DNA of 24,068 bases, from positions 1 through 24,068 of the IMG/VR virus record IMGVR_UViG_2778261544_000011. One strand, given 5' to 3'. Positions within the stretch are counted from its first letter, which is position 1. Every line of letters starts with the position of its first letter. The DNA is from a virus. Taxonomy: Duplodnaviria > Heunggongvirae > Uroviricota > Caudoviricetes. Below, piece after piece: positions 2,201 to 20,007 of this stretch. The position numbers and the translations under genes were made by a program. The notes under the pieces are model-generated. The model saw nothing but the letters and a program-made list of their open reading frames with translations. It was not told the origin of the DNA and did no database searches.

Positions 2201-2929
2201 TTAATTTAAGCCATAATCGCCAATGAGCGCCCTTACATGTTTTATTGTTGTGTATATCGATTTACCAGACTCTCCATACTTAATAGCCAGTTCAGCAGGA
2301 GACATAACATAACTATCTGCATACATATCTGCTTTTTTTATTATTCTACTCAGTGAGTCGGCCTTAGGTAAATAAAACTGGATTCCGCCTACAACTTCCA
2401 GAAATGCTTTTGTTGCAATAAATGTTTTTGTCGTGCCATTTACTTCTTCTTGTGGGTCTACTCCAGTTTTTTTTAATGCCGCCTCAATAGCCCCCATAAT
2501 CATAGTCACACTTTCTGGAAGAATCTTTGTTTCTTTTCTCAATAAAGCGATAATAGCAGTTTTGCGGATATGCTTAATCGGACCACCACTAAAAAAATCC
2601 GGTTCAAATTTCATTGCGTCAAGATAGAATGTTTGTTTTCCGCAAATAGACATAAATTCATTAAAGAGAGCGGTGCCTGCGACATTACAAAAAACATCAA
2701 TTTCGCACTCGCCACTCTGTTCATGTTTCACTGCGTGAAATTGTTTTTCAATCAATTTCACATGCTCACTGACTTCATTATAATTACATGCATATCCCAT
2801 TTTACTGATATAAGACATAACATCACAGATATCACGAGAAAAGCATGAAGAAACAATGAATTTATTTATCGCTGTAATATCATTGTGTGGCGGCGTTAAC
2901 ATGAGATTTTTAAAGGTTTGTTTAGCCAT
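2201..2929 (-). CDS. Hypothetical protein, AT-rich orphan gene (243 aa from the ATG at 2929)
   Basis: ORF 2201-3058; internal ATG at 2929 is preceded by GAGAAG; visibly AT-rich relative to flanking phage genes; no family recognised. Confidence 0.5.
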   Translation of the reverse strand: MAKQTFKNLMLTPPHNDITAINKFIVSSCFSRDICDVMSYISKMGYACNYNEVSEHVKLIEKQFHAVKHEQSGECEIDVFCNVAGTALFNEFMSICGKQTFYLDAMKFEPDFFSGGPIKHIRKTAIIALLRKETKILPESVTMIMGAIEAALKKTGVDPQEEVNGTTKTFIATKAFLEVVGGIQFYLPKADSLSRIIKKADMYADSYVMSPAELAIKYGESGKSIYTTIKHVRALIGDYGLN

Positions 2930-3007
2930 TATCTTCTCGCTTAAGCTTTTGCATATACCTGTGTACATTTGAGCGCGATGCGCGGTAGCCAATGCTTGCA
3001 GCAAACT

Positions 3008-3047
3008 TAACGTTATCCGCAATGTTACGATAACGATTATTGCGGAT
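3008..3047. promoter_or_regulatory. Nested inverted repeats (TATCCGCAAT...ATTGCGGATA and CGTTATC...GATAACG), operator-like, upstream of the orphan gene
   Basis: Perfect 10-bp inverted repeat separated by about 15 bp, roughly 80-120 bp upstream of the 2929 start codon; not followed by a T-tract on either strand. Confidence 0.3.
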
Positions 3048-3189
3048 ATGGGAATCAAAAATAAGTTTATCCCCGATTGTGATAAAACATAATTTTTTCA
3101 AAAAAGAACCATCTCCGTTTGCTCCGGATGCTGTGAGATTACATGGGAATTTTGGGGAAGATAGATTTACCGTTTTCCATGAAGTATGC

Positions 3190-3194
3190 ACGGA
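3190..3194. repeat. 5-bp target site duplication ACGGA (left copy) flanking IS2
   Basis: acgga at 3190-3194 immediately outside the IS2 terminus at 3195; identical copy at 4526-4530. Confidence 0.85.
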
Positions 3195-3205
3195 TGGATT
3201 TGCCC

Positions 3206-4111
3206 CTATATTTCCAGACACCTGTTATCACTTAACCCATTACTGGCCTGCTGCCGTAGATATTCCCGTGGCGAGCGATAACCCAGTGCACTATGCGGAT
3301 GCCATTCGTTATAATGCTCGAACGCCTCTGCAAGGTTCTTTGCTGCCGTTAACCCGTCTGGTTTAGGCATGACACTGATGTAGTCACGCTTTATCGTTTT
3401 CACGAAGCTCTCTGCCATGCCGTTACTCTCCGGACTCCGCACCGCCGTGTTCTTCGGTTCAAGCCCCAACATCCGGGCAAACTGCCGTGTTTCATTAGCC
3501 CGGTAGCATGAACCATTATCCGTCAGCCACTCTACTGGAGACGCCGGAAGCTCGTTGCCGAAGCGGCGTTCCACCGCTCCCAGCATGACGTCCTGTACTG
3601 TTTCACTGTTGAAGCCGCCCGTAGTGACCGCCCAGTGCAGTGCCTCACGGTCACAGCAGTCCAGCGCGAACGTGACTCGCAGTTTTTCTCCGTTATCACA
3701 GCGGAACTCGAACCCGTCAGAGCACCATCGCTGATTACTTTCTTTCACAGCCACTCTGCCGGTATGTGCCCGTTTCGATGGCGGTACAGCGAGTTTTCGC
3801 TCAAGCAACAGCGCATTCTGGCGCATGATCCGGTAAATACGTTTGGCATTGATCGCAGGCATACCATCAAGTTCGGCCTGTCTGCGAAGCAGCGCCCATA
3901 CCCGACGATAACCATATGTGGGCAGCTCTCCGATAACATGGTGTATACGGAGAAGCACATCCGTATCATCTGAGTGACGGCTGCGGCGACCATCTTTCCA
4001 GTCATCGGTTCGTCTGAGAATGACGTGCAACTGCGCACGCGACACCCGGAGACAACGGCTGACTAAGCTTACTCCCCATCCCCGGGCAATAAGGGCGCGT
4101 GCGCTATCCAC
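3206..4111 (-). CDS. insD: IS2 transposase OrfB (InsD)
   Basis: 301-aa ORF recognised as IS2 InsD from memory; DDE integrase-type sequence; overlaps the upstream insC frame as expected for IS3-family frameshifting. Confidence 0.9.
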
Positions 4112-4434
4112 TTTTTTGCACGCCCATATTCCACGGCTTCTTTAAGGAGTTCATTTTCCATCGTTTTTTTGCCGAGCAGGCGCTGGAGTTCTTTAATCTG
4201 CTTCATGGCAGCAGCAAGTTCAGAGGCAGGAACGACCTGTTCTCCTGCGGCCACAGCAGTAAGACTTCCCTCCTGGTATTGCTTGCGCCAGAGAAATAAC
4301 TGGCTGGCTGCCACACCGTGTTGCCGGGCTACAAGGGAGACCGTCATTCCCGGTTCAAAACTCTGCTGAACAATAGCGATCTTTTCCTGTGTAGTACGCC
4401 GTCTGCGTTTCTCCGGTCCTAAGACATCAATCAT
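4069..4434 (-). CDS. insC: IS2 transposase OrfA (InsC), helix-turn-helix protein
   Basis: ORF 4069-4479; start placed at [12 protein letters not shown] (ATG at 4434), giving 121 aa as in IS2 InsC. Confidence 0.85.
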
Positions 4435-10264: not shown

Positions 10265-10583
10265 ACTTTTTTCTCCTGTAAATAAAAAAGGGCCACCAGC
10301 GGCCCGTAAAAAACACCCCGTCAAAAGCACCGGCATCCGCAGATGCCCTTTGCGTGGCGTTATTTGATGCGCACCAGATGTGGCGCAAAGAAATGAAATA
10401 AGACTTATCGGAAATTATGGTTAATTTGAGGATTTAAACCACTTCTGAAGCTTAGTAGTATGAACATGTCCCCGGAAGGGGGCCAATACTTATTATTCTT
10501 CATGGACTTTGTCCCGCGGTCTTAATCCGACGACCGCGCTACTTTTCACCCTCTCGCAAATTGCTATCCAAAGGACGTTGTCC

Positions 10584-10616
10584 CACGAGTATTCCTGAAT
10601 GCTCGTGTCTTTTTTT
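10584..10616 (+). terminator. Rho-independent terminator on the plus strand
   Basis: CACGAG-tattcctgaatg-CTCGTG followed by TCTTTTTTT. Confidence 0.45.
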
Positions 10617-10630
10617 GTCCTGAGAAAGGA

Positions 10631-10656
10631 ATAAAAAAAACCGCCAGATATGGCGG
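10631..10656 (-). terminator. Rho-independent terminator on the minus strand downstream of the tRNA genes
   Basis: Hairpin CCGCCAGATATGGCGG (10641-10656) followed on the minus strand by a run of 8 T (complement of 10633-10640). Confidence 0.5.
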
Positions 10657-11021
10657 TTGGTCAATGCAAGGGATGAATTTTTTAATTGTTATTAAACCGA
10701 GGCGTCGGGTGCCTCCCGAAGTATTCCGTGCTGTATGGATACTGTGGTTTCCCGCTAAACCGACTCTTTAAACCACCCTCGCACTGAGGAGCGCCTCTAT
10801 GGTGCGATTTACAACACCAGAATGATGCATCACCGACCCTGCCAGGAAATACAAAATCTCCACCGATAATGCACCATTCTGCTGCCGTAAAAAAATCAGC
10901 ACTGAGGCTACACCCGGCCTCAAATCATAGCCAGAGAACAGAATGCTTTTTCAAAACAACCTGCTCCCACGTAATAAAAAATACGCCAGTGCCGCAATAC
11001 AATAAGGCTTGTTTCAAATAC

Positions 11022-11096
<75 letters not shown>

Positions 11097-11099
11097 ATA

Positions 11100-11175
<76 letters not shown>

Positions 11176-11410
11176 ATTGGTTCTTCAGGGGAGCGATATC
11201 ACCGAGCAAAGAAGAGTTCCCCCTCAGAACCGTTTTCGATGATACGATTTAATATTCCAATCGCAACAACACTTTGCGTCAAGTTATGTAAATTTATTTA
11301 TATGTTTTTATTTTATGTGAATAATTCACTTTCACTTAAAATATACATGACAATATATAAACAAATTTATTTTGAAGGAGATTATTAAATGTCGTTTCTT
11401 ATATAACACC

Positions 11411-11442
11411 GCAGAAACAACAAAACCCGCTCGATGGCGGGT
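11411..11442 (-). terminator. Rho-independent terminator downstream of the Q-like gene (tR'-like)
   Basis: Minus-strand hairpin AACCCGC-catcga-GCGGGTT followed by TTGTTGTTTCTG. Confidence 0.5.
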
Positions 11443-11497
11443 TCTATTAAAGTTCAATTGCGCTTGATTCGCCTCGCGATACAGCTTTGCGAAGCGT

Positions 11498-11532
11498 ACC
11501 AAAATTGAAGCAGTTTGTGGCTCATTTTGCAA
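11498..11532 (-). promoter_or_regulatory. Candidate late promoter (PR'-like) overlapping the 3' end of the Q-like gene
   Basis: Minus strand: TTGCAA, 17-bp spacer, TTCAAT; about 60-70 nt upstream of the terminator at 11411-11442, paralleling the lambda PR'/tR' layout. Confidence 0.3.
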
Positions 11533-11539
11533 TGATTTT

Positions 11540-12076
11540 TTAAGCATAATCGAACGCTTCTCTCATAGGTGAATACAAAATGAACTCAGCAACACGCAAC
11601 CACTGCTCAACACGACGTCGGCATGTAATCAACGCCCACTCTGGGTACTGTTCGTTTAATAACTCTGCCATCCTTCTCTTACTCATCCCTCGCCCCACAT
11701 AACGCTGACTCAGGACATTTAGTAGTCCTGGATGATCCGCCAGAACTTCACCTATAACACTATCAATTTTTAGTGCCTCTGCATCAGTGCAGTGAGTTAA
11801 CCAGCTTTTTTGCTTTCCTTCGATCATCTCACGCAAAAATGCTTCCAACTCTGGTTTATCAATTCCCGCTTTTTTCAATCTGCGCAGGGCTTCATTGATG
11901 GCTGTTTTTGTCATTTTTTGGGATGCCAGCAACTGGTTAAACATATTCCCTGACCTGCCGCCGCCAATATACGACCAGCGCCCCCACATACGTAGTTTTC
12001 CCTGAATCCAGACACTTTCCAGCGTGGTGAGACGAAGGTGTTCTCCGCTTTTTCCTGTATTCGTTGGGTAAATCAT
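11540..12076 (-). CDS. Putative late-gene antiterminator (Q-like by position), 178 aa
   Basis: ORF 11540-12196; ATG at 12076 overlaps the stop of the upstream DUF1364-like gene (ATGA); sits between the nin-like genes and the PR'-like/tRNA/lysis region; no confident family match. Confidence 0.45.
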   Translation of the reverse strand: MIYPTNTGKSGEHLRLTTLESVWIQGKLRMWGRWSYIGGGRSGNMFNQLLASQKMTKTAINEALRRLKKAGIDKPELEAFLREMIEGKQKSWLTHCTDAEALKIDSVIGEVLADHPGLLNVLSQRYVGRGMSKRRMAELLNEQYPEWALITCRRRVEQWLRVAEFILYSPMREAFDYA

Positions 12077-13314: not shown

Positions 13315-13346
13315 GAAAATAAAAACAAAAACCCGCCGAAGCGGGT
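13315..13346 (-). terminator. Rho-independent terminator at the 3' end of the hok transcript
   Basis: Minus-strand hairpin AACCCGC-ttcg-GCGGGTT followed by TTTGTTTTTATTTTC. Confidence 0.5.
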
Positions 13347-13415
13347 TAAGTGTGGGTGCATTGAGGATGCCTGACACATCAGAGGTGGCGGGAGATTTCT
13401 CCCCCGCCAGGTCTC

Positions 13416-13571
13416 TTACTCCTCAGGTTCGTAAGCTGTGAAGACAGCGACCTCCGTCTGGCCGGTTCGGATTCGTACCTCGCAGAGGTCTTTCCTCGTT
13501 ACCAGTGCCGTCACTATGACGGTTAAACAGATGACGATCAGGGCGATTAACATCGCCTTTTGCTGCTTCAT
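13416..13571 (-). CDS. hok: Hok/Gef-family type I toxin (51 aa)
   Basis: MKQQKAMLIALIVICLTVIVTALVTRKDLCEVRIRTGQTEVAVFTAYEPEE is a typical Hok/Gef-family toxin sequence; ATG at 13571 preceded by AAGGAGAAG; an in-frame upstream extension to the ATG at 13628 could act as a mok-like leader frame. Confidence 0.8.
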   Translation of the reverse strand: MKQQKAMLIALIVICLTVIVTALVTRKDLCEVRIRTGQTEVAVFTAYEPEE

Positions 13572-13924
13572 AGCCTGCTTCTCCTTGACCTTTCGGTCAG
13601 TAAGAGGCAATCTATATGTGACGAGCATATAGGGGCCTCACTTCGATTTATAGTCGGGTGGGGCTTTTATCTATCTGCCGTTGGTGTTCATGCCCGAGGC
13701 AGATAGCCTCAAGCACCCGCAGCAATTCTACTTAACTCTCCTTTTCCCGCAAACCGTTTTTATCCTCAACGAAAATTTTACCAATATCGCCTAACACATC
13801 TCCCTTGCCCTGACGATGCTTACCTCTTTACACAGCCCCCAATTTATGTATTATCTTTTACAAACAACCAGTTAAGAGCTATCGGTGGGTGAGTTCGCCC
13901 TGCGGTAGCTTTTCCTTTATGCAT

Positions 13925-13960
13925 TGCATCTATTTATGTTCTAGTATATTCCTATATGTT
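13925..13960 (+). promoter_or_regulatory. Candidate promoter for the two-gene cassette
   Basis: TTGCAT followed at sub-optimal spacing by TATATT in the AT-rich region upstream of the 13975 start (SD AAGGA); exact -35/-10 assignment uncertain. Confidence 0.25.
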
Positions 13961-13974
13961 CAAAAGGACTTTTC

Positions 13975-14907
13975 ATGCACAGCGTTAATTTCTATTCATT
14001 CCGCGTCTTGACCCATAAAGGCAGTCGAGCCAGCAAAAAACTTAATGAATTGGGTTTAAGTAATAAAAAAACGGCATATGAACTTTTTGTTGATTATTTT
14101 ACTCTATATAAAAACACCCCCATCGAGTTTGGCGTATCCAAAACTAAAATATCTCTGGAACAACACGCTAAACTTCACTTTGATAACTCAAAAAAAATTA
14201 TATATGGTTATGTAAAAGTTGGGAAATATGGAGAAAGCAGTGAAATAAAAGATGTAAAACTCAAAAAAATCCACTATAGGACAACTGCTTATGATGTAAC
14301 ACTCAAAGAACGTTATATTTTAATATACCTACCAGACGCCCTTGAAGAAGGAATTATTGCATTCCACTCTTGCGATAATATTTCTGCTCGAGGTGTCCTT
14401 TCTGATTCTATCACTGAATATCTAAAAAACAAATTTCAACTCGAAGCAAGAATCAATCCATTACATCATAAGAAAATCCCTCAATATATTCTCAATTCCG
14501 AATTAAAACAAATTAAGGCTCAAGGATATAAAGCACCAAAAGACATTGCTGATTCCTTTGGTCAAAACAAAACAAACATCAAGACAGACTTAATAATAAA
14601 AGCAAACGATGGCATGTTCGGAAGTTTCAGAGATTTAAGAAACAAGAATATAGGAAACATCATTGAGATTATTGAAGATAAATGTGATGCAATAAAAGTA
14701 AGCTTACAACTCGGCAGTCGGACTGTCGTTTTCAATTATGATACCATACTAAAAAAAGGAATTTCCGCAGAGTTAGATGATAATGATCTAAAAATCGACC
14801 CATTAACAGGCATACCTGATCTAACAGCACTTCATGACACGATAAAAAACCTTTCTAATGATATATTGTTAGAACTGCATAGCGGAAACAAAGGGGTGAT
14901 TATATGA
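13975..14907 (+). CDS. Hypothetical soluble protein (310 aa), RexA-like candidate, first gene of a two-gene cassette
   Basis: AT-rich ORF opposite in orientation to the flanking phage genes; ATG preceded by AAGGA; N-terminal NFYSFRVLTHKG weakly recalls the RexA N-terminus (unverified). Confidence 0.6.
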   Translation: MHSVNFYSFRVLTHKGSRASKKLNELGLSNKKTAYELFVDYFTLYKNTPIEFGVSKTKISLEQHAKLHFDNSKKIIYGYVKVGKYGESSEIKDVKLKKIHYRTTAYDVTLKERYILIYLPDALEEGIIAFHSCDNISARGVLSDSITEYLKNKFQLEARINPLHHKKIPQYILNSELKQIKAQGYKAPKDIADSFGQNKTNIKTDLIIKANDGMFGSFRDLRNKNIGNIIEIIEDKCDAIKVSLQLGSRTVVFNYDTILKKGISAELDDNDLKIDPLTGIPDLTALHDTIKNLSNDILLELHSGNKGVII

Positions 14908-15458
14908 ATAAAATAAATGTACTGGGTGTAATAATAAAACACTACAAAACAATGTCAGATCAGCGTGGAACAATGTTGATGAGCGACATTATCGTACATT
15001 TTATTGTTCCGTTATCTCTTTCTTTCGTTCTGTGCTGGACATACGGAATAATGAAACCGGCAATTGCTTCCGTCTTTGTTAACTTCGGGGCTATTACAAC
15101 AGCACTATTAATGAGTGCAGTAATAATGATTTATGAACAAAAACAAAAAACCATCACTAAGATATCAGACATAATTGAAGGAAACAAATCCCGAGACAAA
15201 TTGATATCATTAAACACTAACAAAACCATATATGAGCAGTTATGCCACAACGTCGCTTATGCAATATTAACTTCAATAGTATTGGTTATATTTTCAGTGA
15301 TAATATATTTCCTGCCTGACAATGCAGTGGATTTAATGAAATGGTATTTTCGCGCACCTGCATATATTGTTAGCTTTTTAGCCTATACATCCTTTTTTAT
15401 CACTGTTATAACGTTCTTAATGGTAATAAAAAGATTTAGCACAATTTTAGATAATTGA
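14904..15458 (+). CDS. Integral membrane protein with four predicted TM helices (184 aa), RexB-like candidate
   Basis: ATGA start/stop overlap with the upstream gene; AGGGGTG ahead of the ATG; four hydrophobic segments (about residues 26-48, 53-77, 117-137, 150-175). Confidence 0.6.
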   Translation: MNKINVLGVIIKHYKTMSDQRGTMLMSDIIVHFIVPLSLSFVLCWTYGIMKPAIASVFVNFGAITTALLMSAVIMIYEQKQKTITKISDIIEGNKSRDKLISLNTNKTIYEQLCHNVAYAILTSIVLVIFSVIIYFLPDNAVDLMKWYFRAPAYIVSFLAYTSFFITVITFLMVIKRFSTILDN

Positions 15459-15467
15459 ACAGCGGAA

Positions 15468-15495
15468 CAGCCGCCCTTTTGGGCGGCCTCCTGAT
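15468..15495 (+). terminator. Hairpin (AGCCGCCC-tttt-GGGCGGC) after the cassette; weak terminator
   Basis: GC-rich stem immediately after the stop at 15458, followed by ctcctgattatttg (only moderately T-rich). Confidence 0.35.
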
Positions 15496-15558: not shown

Positions 15559-16146
15559 TTATTCAGGCGCGCGAATCTGTTCCGCACAATGCAACAATGC
15601 TTCTGTCACTTCCTTAAGCGTTACAGTATCGCCATCATCCAGTCCTGCAACTTTTGCGTGCCGGACAAACGCCGCGCAAAGCTCGTTAAACGCCACTGCC
15701 CGTACATCAGCCAGGAAAGCATCTGTAGCCGGGGTTTGCGGCATCCTTCCGCCTATTGCGCAGATATACGCATCAGATAGTTCATCCTGCTCGCCATCAA
15801 ACACGTAGCAACTCTGTGCGATAAATTTATTCAGCCCCGCATTCTCCGCCGCAAGCGCAGCAAGATTAGTCTCCAGCCCTGCAATGCGTTCCTCCAGTTC
15901 GTAGACTCTGCATTGCTCTTTATCATCAATCAGATATAACCCAAGACATTCGCTTTCTACCCAACCGCCGAAATCATGATCGTAACGCTCACATGAAAAC
16001 TCACCGTCGCTGTCCTTTGTTGGGATGGTGTAGCTATCTAATGGGCCACCATACGTCGGCACATTTCCCAATGCCGGATGCTCAATCCACATGAAAAATG
16101 CACGTCCGGTTATAGGGCAAATATCTGGTCGCCATTGATTACTCAC
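15559..16146 (-). CDS. Hypothetical phage early protein (195 aa)
   Basis: ORF 15559-16176 (first codon TTG); preferred start is the GTG at 16146 preceded by AGGAGG-aaacca, overlapping the upstream gene stop (GTGAGTAA). Confidence 0.45.
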
Positions 16147-16876
16147 TGGTTTCCTCCTGGCAAAGCTGGGCGACAATATCGCGATATTTATTCAGCTCCC
16201 GCAGCGCGACACAGACTCGCTCCCATTTCCGGATATCACTTTTCGCCCGACGCAGTTCGCGGTTTGCCTGTCGCAGCGATGGCAGAACCAGATTATCCAC
16301 TCGCTTCTCAAGCGGCTGCACAATGTCTGCCACAGTTTCTGTTTTAATATCTTCCTGTGTTGCAGCTTCCTGTACTGGTAACGCAACACATGCAGGCTGA
16401 GGAAAGGCTTTACCATCAGTTTCCGCTACCGATGCCGCTTTCGGCTCTGCTGGTAAATTACCGCCCGGCATGCAGTAACGAAATTTACCGTTCTGATTAA
16501 CACGAATCAGACGACCTTTGCTGATTGCCATTGCCAGCGTTGAAGCCACTTTGCGGGATGTTGTACCGAACAGCGTAGCCAGTTCATCCGCCGTTTGTGG
16601 TCCGCGTTGTTCAATCGTCGCGGTTAAATCGCACTCTGAGATTTTCGCTACTGTCGCCGTGGTGGTTTCTTCCGGCTGTTCTTCTGGCGCTGGCTGTTCC
16701 TGCTGAACGTTGTTATCAGCCACACGCCAGGTGTATACGCTTTTATCAACGAAGCCAGCCTTTTTCAGTTCCCACAGCTCGTTCAGTACTTCTTCACGAC
16801 TGATATCAAGTCGCGCAGCCAGCTCTACCGACGTGGCTTTTCCCATCGCTTTCAGTGCGTCAAAAACAGTCTCCAT
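16139..16876 (-). CDS. Hypothetical protein with an N-terminal winged-helix-like DNA-binding region (245 aa)
   Basis: ORF 16139-16942; ATG at 16876 preceded by GGGAGGAAAT; N-terminus [30 protein letters not shown]... looks like a winged-helix motif; Glu/Gln-rich central linker. Confidence 0.5.
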
Positions 16877-16910
16877 TAAAATTTCCTCCCGGTAAAAATT
16901 ACTTCTCAAC

Positions 16911-17576
16911 TCAAACAAAACCAGCCGCTTTCCGGCGCTCATATTCCTGTTTCAGCAACTCAATTGGCGTTGGTCCCGACGGGCGTTCTGGTGCTGCCAG
17001 TTGCCGCCGTACGGGCGGAACGCTGAAGCCATCACCAACATGCTTTGCCCATTTCGCCAGTTGCCGTTCTGCAAGCCGTTTTAACTCCCCTTCGGTCATC
17101 TGACGCTCAATCCCCTTTGAACGCATCTCGAGGCAAATGTGATACAGCACAGGCTGAGTCCATGGGTATTTATCGCTTCCGTCGTATCGCCAGGACTCAT
17201 TGCGCCAGCGCCGGTACTCCTCCATCACGGCATCCACCGTCAGACCGAATGGATTGGCTCCGCTTTCCGAAATCAGCGCCACAAACTCAGCCAGGTCCGG
17301 AGGCCATGTTTCACCCGCCCGGCAGCGGTTCATGCACTGGCGGCAGACCTGACGGATTTGCTGCTCAGTCATCGCGCCAATCTGTGCAATCCAGAGCTTC
17401 GAAGGTGCGGCCCCGTTCTTCTGGGTCCAGCGGTTCGAATAAACCTCCCCCATGAGTTCCCACAGCTTCCACGCCGTTTCCGTCGCTGATAAATCCGTTT
17501 TCACGTTCCCACTGCTCACGTGCTGCCCGAATTTCCTGAACGGCCCGTGATGCGGTGCCGCCTGGTGCTGCTGCAT
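16911..17576 (-). CDS. Replication protein P-like (DnaB helicase loader, lambda P family)
   Basis: C-terminal ...[40 protein letters not shown]... aligns by eye with lambda P; start ambiguous (ATG 17576 with GGGGTGA SD, or internal ATGs at 17453/17372); overlaps the O-like gene. Confidence 0.65.
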
Positions 17577-18489
17577 GGCTCACCCCCTTGCTGACTGGTT
17601 TAACCTGCGCCCTGACGTGATGTACGTGACGGGCGAATTTCTGCTCCCACTGAACCTGCGTGAAAACTTTCCCCTCCGCTGCCCAGTAGTCCCGGAAGGC
17701 GGCAAGTTCAGCAGGTGTAAATTCCGGCTCCGGCAGAGCCACTCCCCACAGTGCAGCCCGCCGTCGAAAATCCGGCGACGGATGCCAGCCATCGGTCATC
17801 GGAAATTTCCCAATGGGTTCGCTCAGGCCTTCCAGGTAATCAGGTTCCGCTGCCTGCAACGGCACGCCATTTGCCTCACTGGCCGGAGCACTCTCGCGCA
17901 CGCGCGCGTTATGTGTGGGGTTTATATATCTGTTATCTGTTATCTGGATACCGCATGACAAAGCGTTAGCCTTATCCTTAGGCTTATCCTCAGGCAAAGG
18001 GATTGCCTTATCGAATGCCATCCCCAAAGCCTCAGAAACACCGTAGGACGCGGCTCTCAGCGATTCCCTGGCCTCCCATTTGAGAGGGCAATCAGGAATT
18101 AAAGCGAATGCCTTTGCCCAGGATTTAATGACATTTATCGAGTTTGGCGGATTGTGTTTCGCAGCATTCGGGAGCCAAAAAACTCTGGCTTTGATATCTG
18201 CTTTCACCATGCCAAGATTCATGGCTTCGCCTAAGGCTAAGTCAAAGGCTTCGATATCCCACCCCAACTCTTCAGCCATTGCTGCCCGCCCGGCTTTAAA
18301 TAACCCAGGAATAATCCCGGTAAATGGACTGGTCAGCAGATAAATAAACAAACTCTGTCCACTTGGAGGCAGAGGAGATAACGCCCTAAATTTGGGATCA
18401 TCCCATATCGTTATTTTTACCTTGCGATAAGGCTCATTGTTTGCCTTAGTTTTTGGCATGGGATTTGGCATGTTTTTAGCCTTAACCAT
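17365..18489 (-). CDS. Putative replication initiator/replisome organiser (O-like by position)
   Basis: ORF 17365-18543 (first codon TTG); ATG at 18489 preceded by GAGG; immediately upstream of the P-like gene; contains an iteron-like repeat array. Confidence 0.5.
17923..18012. repeat. Iteron-like direct repeats with a TTATC core inside the O-like gene (candidate origin)
   Basis: tatctgttatctgttatctgg (17928-17946) and gccttatcct-tag-gcttatcctcagg...gccttatcg (17968-18012). Confidence 0.5.
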
Positions 18490-18568
18490 AATTGCCTCAT
18501 CTGGTGTCGAACCTTCCTCCGGATATAATCTGTGATTCCCCAATCAACAGAACCAAAGGAGGTTCGAC

Positions 18569-19024
18569 ATGTCTTTAATGGCTGTTTGCCAAAAAATTAA
18601 AAATCACATGCGCACTGTGTACAAAATTAACCAGCACGACCACGACATGGTTAACCTGGTAACATGCAGGGCTATAGTTCTCACCCGCTTCCACCTGATT
18701 CTTACAAATCACTCACGGGATTCTCTCCTGAGCCCCAGTAGCTATGATTCGCTGGCGAGATTGCTATACCAGGCAAGTGAAAAACGTATTACTGATCCCT
18801 TATCTGTTTCCCCTGTCCTTGCTCTTCACATTCTGGAAGACGCTCTCTATGACCCCCGTCAGGAATGCGACTATCAATTTCTTGAAGCTGAGAAATCAAT
18901 GAGAGAATGGTTCGTTGAATATCGCGAACGGCAGCAAAAGTTACCCTCAGAGTATTCAGAACTTCCGCAACTTCGCTGGAGTGACCTTCCGAACGAATTA
19001 TTTGCTCTGACCCCAGAAAATTAA
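18569..19024 (+). CDS. Hypothetical protein (151 aa) encoded antisense to the early-right operon
   Basis: Textbook SD (AAGGAGG, 6-nt spacer) before the ATG at 18569; TATAAT hexamer at 18526-18531; overlaps the competing minus-strand ORF 18789-19202. Confidence 0.4.
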   Translation: MSLMAVCQKIKNHMRTVYKINQHDHDMVNLVTCRAIVLTRFHLILTNHSRDSLLSPSSYDSLARLLYQASEKRITDPLSVSPVLALHILEDALYDPRQECDYQFLEAEKSMREWFVEYRERQQKLPSEYSELPQLRWSDLPNELFALTPEN

Positions 19025-19221
19025 TTCTTGGGGATAAATCGTCCATCACTGAGCGCAGGCTAAGTTCTGCGCTCTGAAGCTTCCGAACCGAAGTTTCTGT
19101 ACCCCAACCCGCAATTTCTGCATTTTTTGCAAGTTTCAGGATCCAGTCTCGTAGTTCGCCGGGAGTAAGATTTCCGGCATTTATGTACGGTTTGATTTTC
19201 ATTATTGGATACCCTATTCAA

Positions 19222-19644
19222 TCAATGCACTACAACAGAATCGTCGGACGCTCCACCACCGCTGAAATGTGCTTTCCGGTAAACGGCCTGGACTGCATCA
19301 TCATGCGCATCAATTGCCGTACTCAACGCTTCCTGCGCCGCCAGTAATGCACGGCGTTCCAGGGTATCGAAGATGCAGAGTCGGTGACGCAGCTCGCGCG
19401 GAAGAATTGCCAGAACCGCAGGGATCAGTTTCTGAATTTTTTCCCTTTGCGCTTTCGTTTCACCTTTTAACCAACGGTGATAGATGTTCTGCTGATTATT
19501 CCAGTCCTTGCCTGGTACCAGGGGCAATTCGCCGCCCCCCTGGCGCAGATATTCTTCAGTAATTGCACTGGCTACCCATGCCTGCCCTTTTTCAGCAGCC
19601 AGGGCTAACAACACTGATTCGATGTGCTCATGCTTGATTTTCAT
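19222..19644 (-). CDS. ydaT: YdaT-like protein (Rac prophage YdaT family)
   Basis: 140-aa ORF starting MKIKHEHIESVLLALAAEKG..., recalled as closely resembling K-12 Rac YdaT; ATG preceded by AGGAG; follows the ydaS-like gene. Confidence 0.6.
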   Translation of the reverse strand: MKIKHEHIESVLLALAAEKGQAWVASAITEEYLRQGGGELPLVPGKDWNNQQNIYHRWLKGETKAQREKIQKLIPAVLAILPRELRHRLCIFDTLERRALLAAQEALSTAIDAHDDAVQAVYRKAHFSGGGASDDSVVVH

Positions 19645-19903
19645 GAATCAACTCCTGTGCATTTTGTGTGTTAGCCTTACATCCAACAGGTAAACCGTCG
19701 GTTGGGTTAGGGTAGATATCAGGCCGAAGTTCATGAGGTGTAACCTCGAAATTCGTAGCCTCTGCGATACGCAATACCTTTTCAGGGCTTAACTGACTAC
19801 GTCCAGTAGCAACGAGGCTAATCATTGATTGCGAACAACCAGCCAGCGCGGCCAAACAAGACTGTCGTACACGATTTTTTTTCAAATATTCATCTAATGT
19901 CAT
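19628..19903 (-). CDS. ydaS: Cro-type/YdaS-like helix-turn-helix protein
   Basis: ORF 19628-19942; preferred start is the ATG at 19903 with AAGGTGA; HTH-like QSCLAALAGCSQSMISLVATGR; divergent from the repressor gene. Confidence 0.55.
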   Translation of the reverse strand: MTLDEYLKKNRVRQSCLAALAGCSQSMISLVATGRSQLSPEKVLRIAEATNFEVTPHELRPDIYPNPTDGLPVGCKANTQNAQELIHENQA

Positions 19904-19978
19904 AAGGGTCACCTTAGTAATGCTCATCAAAATATTAACCATACTAATTTAAATGATCAATACCTATATCAGTTTGAG

Positions 19979-19999
19979 ATTATGAACTGTATTCATAAG
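19979..19999. promoter_or_regulatory. Operator-like palindrome TTATGAA-N5-TTCATAA in the divergent immunity promoter region
   Basis: Perfect 7-bp inverted repeat between the ydaS-like and repressor genes, just upstream of the ATG at 20008. Confidence 0.3.
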
Positions 20000-20007
20000 A
20001 TGGTGGT

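What the first reader, a model, noticed from the sequence alone, without database searches (positions are those of the whole stretch)
13975..15458. AT-rich two-gene cassette with RexA/RexB-like architecture inserted opposite to the flanking phage operons
A 310-aa soluble protein and a 184-aa four-helix membrane protein are translationally coupled (ATGA overlap), visibly AT-rich, and sit between the hok locus and the replication genes with their own SD, candidate promoter and downstream hairpin. This is typical moron/defence-island behaviour. The size and topology match lambda RexA (soluble) and RexB (four-TM), and the N-terminus of the first protein weakly recalls RexA, but I cannot confirm homology. 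If unrelated to RexAB it would be an undescribed membrane-effector defence candidate.
Basis: partly seen in the sequence, partly recalled or inferred. Interest (0 to 1): 0.8.

Follow-up and report, generated by a model that had tools for sequence, protein, structure and literature searches.

The report
Unannotated Rex-like two-gene phage-defence cassette
An AT-rich two-gene insert in an E. coli Rac-type prophage encodes a soluble protein whose predicted fold is closest to phage lambda RexA, plus a small four-helix membrane protein; the pair belongs to a large, uncatalogued family carried by prophages, plasmids and defence islands, and most likely aborts infection by rival phages.

Summary
Two genes, A (13975-14907, 310 aa, soluble, pI 9.1) and B (14904-15458, 184 aa, four TM helices), overlap by ATGA. 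They occupy the most AT-rich part of the window, between hokD/sok and the ead/replication genes, on the opposite strand, with a conserved promoter-like site and a downstream hairpin.

A belongs to a family of about 600 clusters, and B followed A directly in every locus examined. The pair occurs in lambdoid and P2-like prophages, a Pf filamentous phage, small Col plasmids and defence islands.

Verdict: a probable RexAB-type abortive-infection module and a new variant of a known kind. Function is inferred, not shown.

The parts
13827..13854 (+). Candidate sigma-70 promoter of the cassette (TTTACA, 16-nt spacer, TATTAT)
   Evidence: Consensus scan, 10 of 12 positions. Both hexamers are invariant in the window, the 74%-identity E. 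coli EC11 allele and Citrobacter braakii. Function is not shown.
13874..13913 (+). Conserved stem-loop (11+5 bp) in the roughly 110-nt leader of gene A; possible attenuator or operator
   Evidence: Fold of 13861-13980 gives -28.8 kcal/mol, z -2.2. The region is nearly invariant across three diverged copies. Its role is unknown.
13964..13968 (+). Shine-Dalgarno (AAGGA) of gene A, 6 nt before the ATG
   Evidence: Read directly from the sequence.
13975..14907 (+). Gene A: 310-aa soluble basic protein (35.2 kDa, pI 9.1) with a RexA-like fold; proposed DNA-binding sensor
14891..14896 (+). Shine-Dalgarno (AAGGGG) of gene B, inside the last codons of A
   Evidence: Read directly from the sequence.
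14904..15458 (+). Gene B: 184-aa inner-membrane protein with four TM helices (N-in/C-in), an N-terminal amphipathic helix and a 36-residue cytoplasmic loop; proposed membrane effector
   Evidence: ORF. phrog_15250, function unknown. Hydropathy and positive-inside charge distribution. AlphaFold model, pLDDT 86. TM2 motif VNFGAIxTALLMS and C-terminal KR are conserved in 88 homologues. A homologue follows an A homologue in every locus examined.
15470..15487 (+). GC-rich hairpin (7-bp stem, UUUU loop) 12 nt after B's stop; candidate terminator
   Evidence: Fold gives -19.7 kcal/mol, z -2.4. Not called by the terminator scan because the T-run is weak.
13416..13718 (-). Left flank: hokD toxin gene plus sok/mok regulatory region (type I toxin-antitoxin); not part of the cassette
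   Evidence: PGAP annotation of the 99.6%-identical E. coli JNU locus. Rfam RF01794, 106 bits.
15559..16113 (-). Right flank: ead/Ea22-like gene, last gene of the replication-side operon; not part of the cassette
   Evidence: PGAP annotation of the JNU locus and the ORF list.

Best explanation
The cassette is a RexAB-type two-component phage-exclusion (abortive-infection) module carried as lysogen-expressed cargo by a Rac-type prophage.

Proposed mechanism:
1. A is a basic, RexA-fold protein that probably dimerises. It binds DNA or a phage DNA-protein intermediate made early in infection by another phage.
2. Activated A engages B, probably through B's conserved cytoplasmic N-terminal helix or its 36-residue cytoplasmic loop.
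3. B oligomerises or opens in the inner membrane, using the highly conserved polar TM2.
4. The membrane is depolarised or permeabilised, growth stops, and the infection aborts.

Expression comes from the cassette's own conserved promoter in the lysogen. The prophage's early lytic operon must read antisense through the cassette, which would silence it during the prophage's own lytic growth.

Shown here: the gene structure, the four-TM topology, the strict A-B linkage, the fold similarity and the genomic contexts. Every functional step is inferred from lambda RexAB and from P. putida RexABpp.
For: Fold and sequence:
- The model's layout matches RexA's split globular domain with an inserted dimerisation domain as described in PMC11077077: a confident domain at 1-165, a poorly modelled middle, and a confident C-terminal helix at 283-301.
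- A 121-sequence A profile against a 26-sequence RexA profile gives P 9.5e-4 over 143 collinear columns. The alignment extends to 1-307 versus 1-277 at relaxed settings. Reversed profiles score 13.7 and 17.1 against an observed 31.7, and 2 of 200 block-shuffles reach the observed score.
- A is basic (pI 9.1; RexA 8.6).

The partner protein:
- B is a small four-TM, N-in/C-in protein encoded directly downstream with translational coupling, in the same order as rexA-rexB.

Linkage:
- A is immediately upstream of B in 23 of 23 species-representative genome loci, in 6 of 6 distant A-family contexts, and in the Pf phage and plasmid copies. This holds down to about 20% identity for A.

Mobility and neighbourhood typical of defence cargo:
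- The pair occurs in lambdoid prophages, inside or beside tail modules of other prophages (L007; Pseudomonas P2-like loci), and next to the repressor of Pf filamentous phage PfAC16. In sibling Pf phages that accessory region carries Kiwa, Gabija, ShosTA, IetAS, Avs or retrons (PMC11878078).
- It is almost the sole cargo of Col plasmids of about 5.5 kb.
- It also lies beside GmrSD, MmeI-type and type III R-M, PemK, MazE/PIN, bSEFIR, MzaA and Pycsar-type TIR genes.

Precedent:
Against: - No sequence-level homology to RexA or RexB was found by Pfam, BLASTP or HMM-to-PDB searches.
- The profile-profile signal is marginal (HHalign probability 22%).
- Foldseek against viral predicted structures recovered five uncharacterised phage proteins, not RexA.
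- B against RexB scores below the null.
- The cassette is not in the immunity region and is not co-transcribed with the repressor here.
- PADLOC v2 has no model for it.
- No phenotype data exist for this family.
- Membership in the validated P. putida family could not be tested. Its sequence was absent from the two collections searched, and PP_5644's primer-derived termini lack the B-family motifs.
Confidence: 0.6

Rival explanations
1. Kiwa-like logic with the roles reversed. The membrane protein B senses envelope perturbation or phage DNA entry, and releases or activates the soluble DNA-binding protein A. A then acts directly on phage DNA by blocking replication or transcription, without killing the cell.
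For: The composition matches Kiwa: a four-TM protein of about 185 aa plus a soluble, probably DNA-binding protein of about 310 aa. My knowledge of Kiwa comes from memory, not from a test here. Kiwa occupies the equivalent accessory slot in sibling Pf phages (PMC11878078). In mycobacteriophage Butters the RexA-like protein is the effector and the membrane protein only restrains it (PMC12894663). Lambda RexA also has RexB-independent DNA-related activity (PMC11077077).
Confidence: 0.13
2. An addiction or stabilisation module. B is a membrane toxin in the manner of Hok or holins, A is its proteic antidote, and the pair serves mainly to retain the prophage or plasmid rather than to defend against phages.
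For: The pair is carried on very small Col plasmids alongside a RelE/ParE toxin-antitoxin. In the window it lies next to the hok/sok locus. Its neighbours often include toxin-antitoxin genes. The two genes are tightly coupled in translation.
Against: A 310-aa, two-domain antitoxin with a RexA fold would be atypical. The order, large soluble gene first and membrane gene second, and the sizes match Rex-type systems. In P. putida, deleting the soluble gene alone was viable and abolished defence instead of killing the cell. The pair is also found in defence islands next to R-M systems.
Confidence: 0.08
3. Not a defence function. The pair is prophage cargo with another role, such as modulating the lysis-lysogeny switch or replication (as RexA does by itself in lambda), or a membrane function that benefits the host.
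For: Lambda RexA biases the CI/Cro switch independently of RexB (PMC11077077). In Pf phage PfAC16 and P. putida P1 the pair sits beside the repressor. No phenotype has been measured for this family.
Against: The pair also occurs outside phages, on Col plasmids and in chromosomal defence islands, where a lysis-lysogeny role makes no sense. The strict A-B coupling argues that the membrane partner is essential to the function.
Confidence: 0.1

Closest known systems
Phage lambda RexA/RexB exclusion system (Pfam PF15969/PF15968; RexA structure PDB 8TWQ)
   Different: There is no detectable family-level sequence homology for either protein. A is 310 aa, RexA 279. B is 184 aa, RexB 144, and has an extra N-terminal amphipathic helix and a 36-residue cytoplasmic helical loop. 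The cassette has its own promoter and lies between hok and the replication genes, antisense to the early operon, not in the cI operon. This family spreads far beyond lambdoid phages.
P. putida prophage P1 RexABpp (PP_5643/PP_5644; Rosendahl et al., Sci Rep 2026, PMC12894663)
   Different: Sequence identity could not be tested because the locus is absent from the collections I could scan. PP_5644's termini (MLIGQLANP... and ...LYYLGYKLQE) do not show the B-family signatures (M-S-S-K-I-N-V... and ...KR-x-H/S-x-L-L). Only 2 of 7 fingerprint residues match the nearest Pseudomonas B homologues. The P. putida pair lies just downstream of a Cro/CI-type repressor.
Actinobacteriophage Rex-like pairs (Sbash gp30/gp31, CarolAnn gp44/gp43, Butters gp30/gp31)
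   Same: A soluble DNA-binding dimer plus a membrane protein, encoded by temperate phages and giving heterotypic exclusion (PMC11077077 section 23; PMC12894663 discussion).
   Different: The hosts are Gram-positive and I tested no sequence relationship. In Butters the roles are reversed.
Kiwa (KwaA four-TM protein + KwaB DUF4868)
   Same: A small four-TM protein paired with a soluble protein of about 310 aa. Both occupy the same accessory slot in Pf filamentous phages.
   Different: No PADLOC or Pfam hit to KwaA, KwaB or DUF4868. The gene order is opposite.

Membership tests
Lambda RexA family (Pfam PF15969) | Sequence match to the RexA family profile | tested here: not met
   Pfam hmmscan of the window protein and of 121 family members gave no RexA hit. 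BLASTP against lambda RexA gave E 1.2. The PDB HMM search did not return 8TWQ. hhalign reached only probability 22%, P 9.5e-4.
Lambda RexA family (Pfam PF15969) | RexA fold: a split globular beta-rich domain interrupted by a dimerisation domain, with a C-terminal helix packing back (PDB 8TWQ) | tested here: met
Lambda RexA family (Pfam PF15969) | Non-specific DNA binding and dimerisation | not testable with these tools
   Only the basic pI of 9.1 is consistent with this.
Lambda RexB family (Pfam PF15968) | Sequence match to the RexB family profile | tested here: not met
   No Pfam hit. BLASTP gave E 0.65. hhalign of 88 B sequences against 6 RexB sequences scored 10.7, below the shuffle mean of 12.4. 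RexB is not among the top 50 Foldseek hits in BFVD.
Lambda RexB family (Pfam PF15968) | Small inner-membrane protein with four TM helices, encoded directly downstream of the soluble partner | tested here: met
   Hydropathy, the positive-inside rule and the AlphaFold model agree. The genes overlap by ATGA.
Lambda RexAB system | Location in the immunity region, co-transcribed with the cI repressor | tested here: not met
   The cassette lies between hokD and ead, about 4.5 kb from the CI/Cro-like genes, on its own promoter. Genuine rexAB relatives sit directly after the S24 repressor.
Lambda RexAB system | Exclusion of superinfecting phage by membrane depolarisation | not testable with these tools
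   Needs phage challenge and membrane-potential assays.
RexAB-type system of P. putida (RexABpp, PMC12894663) | Soluble protein of about 320 aa with RexA as best structural match, plus a four-TM partner of about 185 aa downstream | tested here: met
RexAB-type system of P. putida (RexABpp, PMC12894663) | Sequence homology to PP_5643 and PP_5644 | tested here: inconclusive
   The sequences could not be retrieved. Primer-derived termini show that the A N-terminus is compatible with the family, while the B termini are not obviously so. The suppressor-residue fingerprint matches 2 of 7 positions in the nearest Pseudomonas homologues.
Kiwa (KwaA/KwaB) | KwaB DUF4868 domain and KwaA profile; gene order kwaA then kwaB | tested here: not met
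   No PADLOC or Pfam hits for the window proteins or for 121 A-family members. The order here is soluble gene first, then membrane gene.
PHROG families phrog_15676 / phrog_15250 | Full-length profile match | tested here: met
   E 7e-215 and 2e-124. Both families are annotated 'unknown function'.

The most novel reading that the evidence does not exclude
The A+B pair defines a large, previously uncatalogued superfamily of Rex-type defence modules, with about 600 clusters at 50% identity. It spans Gamma- and Betaproteobacteria and beyond, and travels on five kinds of mobile element. In it, an ancient RexA/RdgC-fold DNA sensor is obligatorily coupled to a four-TM effector that is evolutionarily unrelated to RexB. 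If so, lambda RexAB is one small offshoot of a much broader sensor family, and the membrane effector has been swapped at least once. This family would also be a tractable E. coli model for the 70-year-old question of how Rex senses infection.
Probability: 0.45. Interest if true: 0.65.

Novelty: new variant of a known kind. Interest (0 to 1): 0.55.

Why it matters
Rex was the first abortive-infection system discovered, and its trigger and its RexA-to-RexB signalling are still unresolved. By one 2026 count only five Rex-like systems have been described.

A widespread family with a RexA-fold sensor and a different, highly conserved four-TM partner would:
- show that Rex-type immunity is common, not a lambda curiosity;
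- give comparative leverage from hundreds of co-evolving A-B pairs, invariant TM2 and N-helix motifs in B, and GxxG and PxDIAD motifs in A, to map the interface and the pore;
- fill a gap in defence-annotation tools, since PADLOC, Pfam and NCBIfam all miss it, including in clinical P. aeruginosa Pf phages and ETEC strains such as E24377A;
- supply a native E. coli system for genetics.

Tried and rejected
**Family and sequence searches with no result**
- Pfam, NCBIfam and PADLOC scans of both proteins gave nothing.
- PADLOC and Pfam scans of 121 diverse A-family members gave only scattered single chance hits.
- Sequence searches of the PDB with single sequences and with the deep profile gave nothing relevant.
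- BLASTP of A against RexA and of B against RexB was negative.
- hhalign with shallow A profiles (A1, A4) against RexA was negative. Only the 121-sequence profile gave a marginal signal.

**Structure searches**
- Foldseek of B against BFVD gave no significant hit and no RexB.
- Foldseek of A against BFVD did not find RexA, only five uncharacterised phage proteins.
- AFDB50 was unavailable.

**Attempts to obtain PP_5643/PP_5644**
- An exact primer-derived 30-mer in viral contigs and a 25-mer in metagenome contigs both returned zero matches.
- The suppressor-residue fingerprint was only partly informative.

**Other dead ends**
- The search for related loci with the deep A alignment failed because no stretch was conserved enough.
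- Brenes & Laub 2025 (Cell Host Microbe 33:1004) is not held in the library.
- The DefensePredictor main text mentions no RexA-like plus four-TM pair, but I did not read its supplementary tables.

**Readings rejected**
- Kiwa membership (no profile hits, opposite gene order).
- Holin or Hok-type single toxin (obligate large partner).
- Chance ORFs (strong conservation in hundreds of genomes).

Full report
**1. The observation**

The window is a Rac-type lambdoid prophage of E. coli. It is 99.6% identical to a prophage of strain JNU that is integrated next to ttcA and carries intR, xisR, recET, kilR and ydaS/T-like genes.

At the stated coordinates there are two + strand ORFs. A lies at 13975-14907 (310 aa) and B at 14904-15458 (184 aa). 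The junction reads AAAGGGGTGATTATATGAAT, so A's TGA stop overlaps B's ATG. An AAGGGG ribosome-binding site sits inside A's last codons. A has AAGGA 6 nt upstream of its own ATG.

GC content is 0.33 for A and 0.32 for B, against 0.46 for the window and about 0.50 in the flanks. The cassette fills the three most AT-rich of 40 bins.

All neighbouring phage genes are on the - strand. To the left are hokD (13416-13571) and its sok/mok region (Rfam sok, 106 bits, 13569-13718). To the right are the ead/Ea22-like gene, DUF1627, P and an O-like gene.

A candidate promoter, TTTACA-16-TATTAT at 13827-13854, is not statistically remarkable by itself. However, both hexamers and a downstream leader stem-loop (13874-13913) are invariant in three copies whose coding regions have diverged to 74% identity.

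A stable GC hairpin follows B (15470-15487; -19.7 kcal/mol, z -2.4). It lacks a strong T-tract, so the terminator scan did not call it.

The only unsupported detail is the remark that A's N-terminus recalls RexA, since BLASTP finds nothing.

**2. What the proteins are**

Neither protein hits Pfam, NCBIfam or PADLOC v2. Both match PHROGs of unknown function. Public annotations all read 'hypothetical protein'.

A is soluble (maximum hydropathy 1.08), 35 kDa and basic (pI 9.1).

B has four hydrophobic helices and a confident AlphaFold model (pLDDT 86). The model shows a short N-terminal amphipathic helix and four long helices, with TM2 and TM3 extending into a 36-residue charged loop. The charge distribution gives an N-in/C-in topology.

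The A model (pLDDT 71) has a confident beta-rich domain at 1-165, a poorly modelled middle at 172-237, and a confident C-terminal helix at 283-301.

**3. The test against RexA and RexB**

[quoted passage not shown] The A model's layout fits that description.

*Sequence.* BLASTP and shallow profiles show nothing.

An exhaustive HMMER search showed that A belongs to a much larger family: 598 representatives of 50%-identity clusters, almost all 295-330 aa. I then compared a 121-sequence profile of that family with a 26-sequence RexA family profile. The result was P 9.5e-4 over 143 collinear columns (A 106-249 against RexA 83-236), extending to full length at relaxed settings.

As nulls, reversed profiles score 13.7 and 17.1 against the observed 31.7. 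Of 200 block-shuffled RexA profiles (mean 22.6, sd 3.1), 2 reach the observed score.

Taken together, this is a consistent but marginal case for very remote homology and a reasonable case for a shared fold. Foldseek against viral predicted structures did not retrieve RexA. It found five uncharacterised phage proteins of similar length (E 2e-12 to 2e-5).

*B against RexB.* BLASTP is negative. A profile of 88 B-family sequences against six RexB sequences spanning 43-100% identity scores below the shuffle mean. Foldseek finds no RexB. B resembles RexB only in being a small four-TM protein encoded just downstream of the soluble gene.

**4. The pair is an obligate, mobile module**

Every B homologue examined is preceded by an A homologue on the same strand, overlapping it or within a few bases:
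- Enterobacter lambdoid prophages, with A at 38% identity.
- A prophage tail module, with A at 28% identity.
- Six contexts of A-family members at about 20-26% identity. These include a marine MAG, a site next to two GmrSD genes, a site between an MmeI-type R-M and PemK/EVE genes, and a site beside IS1595 and MazE/PIN.
- 23 of 23 species-representative genomes. These are Halomonadaceae, Vibrio, Alteromonas, Pseudoalteromonas, Alcanivorax, Acinetobacter, five Pseudomonas, Paludibacterium, an Alcaligenaceae MAG and a Phycisphaerae MAG.

The pair is also found in:
- P. aeruginosa filamentous phage PfAC16, directly beside the repressor and excisionase. A published survey left these two ORFs as hypothetical, while sibling Pf phages carry Kiwa, Gabija, ShosTA, IetAS, Avs or retrons in their accessory regions (PMC11878078).
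- Col-type plasmids of about 5.5 kb, where it is essentially the only cargo.

Among 131 ORFs flanking the pair in the representative genomes are a complete type III R-M, type II methyltransferases, bSEFIR, MzaA, PADLOC candidate systems, two Pycsar-type TIR effectors, P2 GpD/GpU/tape-measure genes, a Mu portal, integrases and LexA/CI-like repressors.

In E. coli the cassette is rare: 37 of 5,426 complete genomes, always single-copy and chromosomal, in two allele groups (at least 95% and about 74% identity). Other Rac-like phages hold unrelated small ORFs in the same slot between hok and the replication genes.

**5. Mechanism**

The best-supported reading is a RexAB-type exclusion module. A acts as a DNA-binding, probably dimeric sensor. 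B acts as a membrane effector whose activation collapses membrane integrity or potential and arrests the infected cell.

The strongest external support is the 2026 P. putida study (PMC12894663). There:
- PP_5644 is a four-TM protein of at least 181 aa.
- Both genes are needed for defence.
- Overexpression of the soluble protein causes growth arrest and dye uptake that depend on the membrane protein.

Conserved features here fit this picture but do not prove it. B's TM2 (VNFGAIxTALLMS...YDQ), its N-terminal K-I-N...H motif and its C-terminal KR are at least 85% conserved in 88 homologues. A has invariant G83 and G86 and a PxDIAD motif, with no catalytic-type signature.

The prophage's early operon runs on the - strand. 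It must read antisense through the cassette to reach hokD, the Q-like region and the lysis genes. From this I infer that the cassette is expressed in the lysogen and silenced during the prophage's own lytic growth.

The rivals are:
- a Kiwa-like or Butters-like role reversal, with B as sensor and A as effector on DNA;
- an addiction module;
- a non-defence role.

**6. Relation to what is known, and novelty**

The cassette fails family-level membership tests for RexA and RexB by sequence, and it is not located in the immunity region. I therefore do not file it as a rexAB orthologue. It does meet the architectural and fold criteria of the looser 'RexAB-type' class.

I could not settle whether it belongs to the same sequence family as RexABpp, because the P. 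putida locus was absent from the collections I could scan. The termini I derived from the paper's primers give mixed evidence:
- PP_5643 begins MHRTATFV, which is compatible with the A family's first strand. 'MH' is the commonest start in the family, and one member begins MHSLATYL.
- PP_5644's termini lack the B-family signatures.

I rate the finding a new variant of a known kind. It is a large, unannotated family that pairs a RexA-fold protein with a non-RexB four-TM partner.

Two caveats apply. Either could already list this pair.

**7. Verdict**

- Confidence in the Rex-type abortive-infection explanation is about 0.6.
- Interest is 0.55. The result is useful and testable, and it fills an annotation gap, but it is no longer a surprise after the 2026 P. 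putida paper.

Noticed in passing
window 13874-13913 (+), within the leader 13861-13974: A stem-loop (11+5 bp) followed by a U-rich stretch sits between the candidate promoter and gene A. It is almost invariant across copies whose coding sequence has diverged to 74% identity. It could be an attenuator, an operator or an RNA-stability element.
   Followed up: partly
window 13326-13407 (-): A sub-threshold match to the Hfq-binding sRNA family isrK (25.4 bits against a gathering score of 50; E 0.0096), just downstream of hokD.
   Followed up: no
window ~2788-4224 (-) (L001 3089-4525): In the near-identical E. coli JNU prophage, PGAP names a 478-aa protein immediately after the terminase genes 'anti-CBASS protein Acb1 family protein'. 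This is the position where a portal protein is expected, so the name deserves checking.
   Followed up: no
window ~10560-11600: A second AT-rich stretch (GC 0.35-0.41) holds a 247-aa helix-turn-helix gene on the - strand, between the DUF1133/Q-like region and the holin genes. The same gene is present in the EC11 prophage. It may be another cargo gene.
   Followed up: no
window 15559-20000 (-) relative to 13975-15458 (+): The Cro-like/YdaS-YdaT, O-like, P, DUF1627 and ead operon is transcribed towards the cassette. It must pass through the cassette antisense to reach hokD, DUF1367, DUF1364, DUF1133 and the lysis genes. The hairpins at both ends of the cassette may act on that read-through.
   Followed up: no
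L029, L031, L038 (Pseudomonas) and L007: In three Pseudomonas genomes the A-B pair directly abuts P2-type gpD, gpU and tape-measure genes. In L007 it is inserted between a tape-measure (SLT) gene and a Dit-like gene. Tail-module borders appear to be recurrent insertion sites for this cassette.
   Followed up: partly
BFVD entries A0A8S5S8L2 and A0A8S5S8H0 (Siphoviridae sp. ctylc9): One uncultured gut siphovirus supplies both the second-best structural match to A (314 aa, E 3.6e-9) and the second-best match to B (172 aa, TM-score 0.52/0.55). This suggests the pair extends to phages too distant to detect by sequence.
   Followed up: no
L037 4065-4998: In an Alcaligenaceae MAG the A gene is split into two ORFs, apparently by a frameshift, while B is intact. 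This is either a decaying copy or an assembly error.
   Followed up: no
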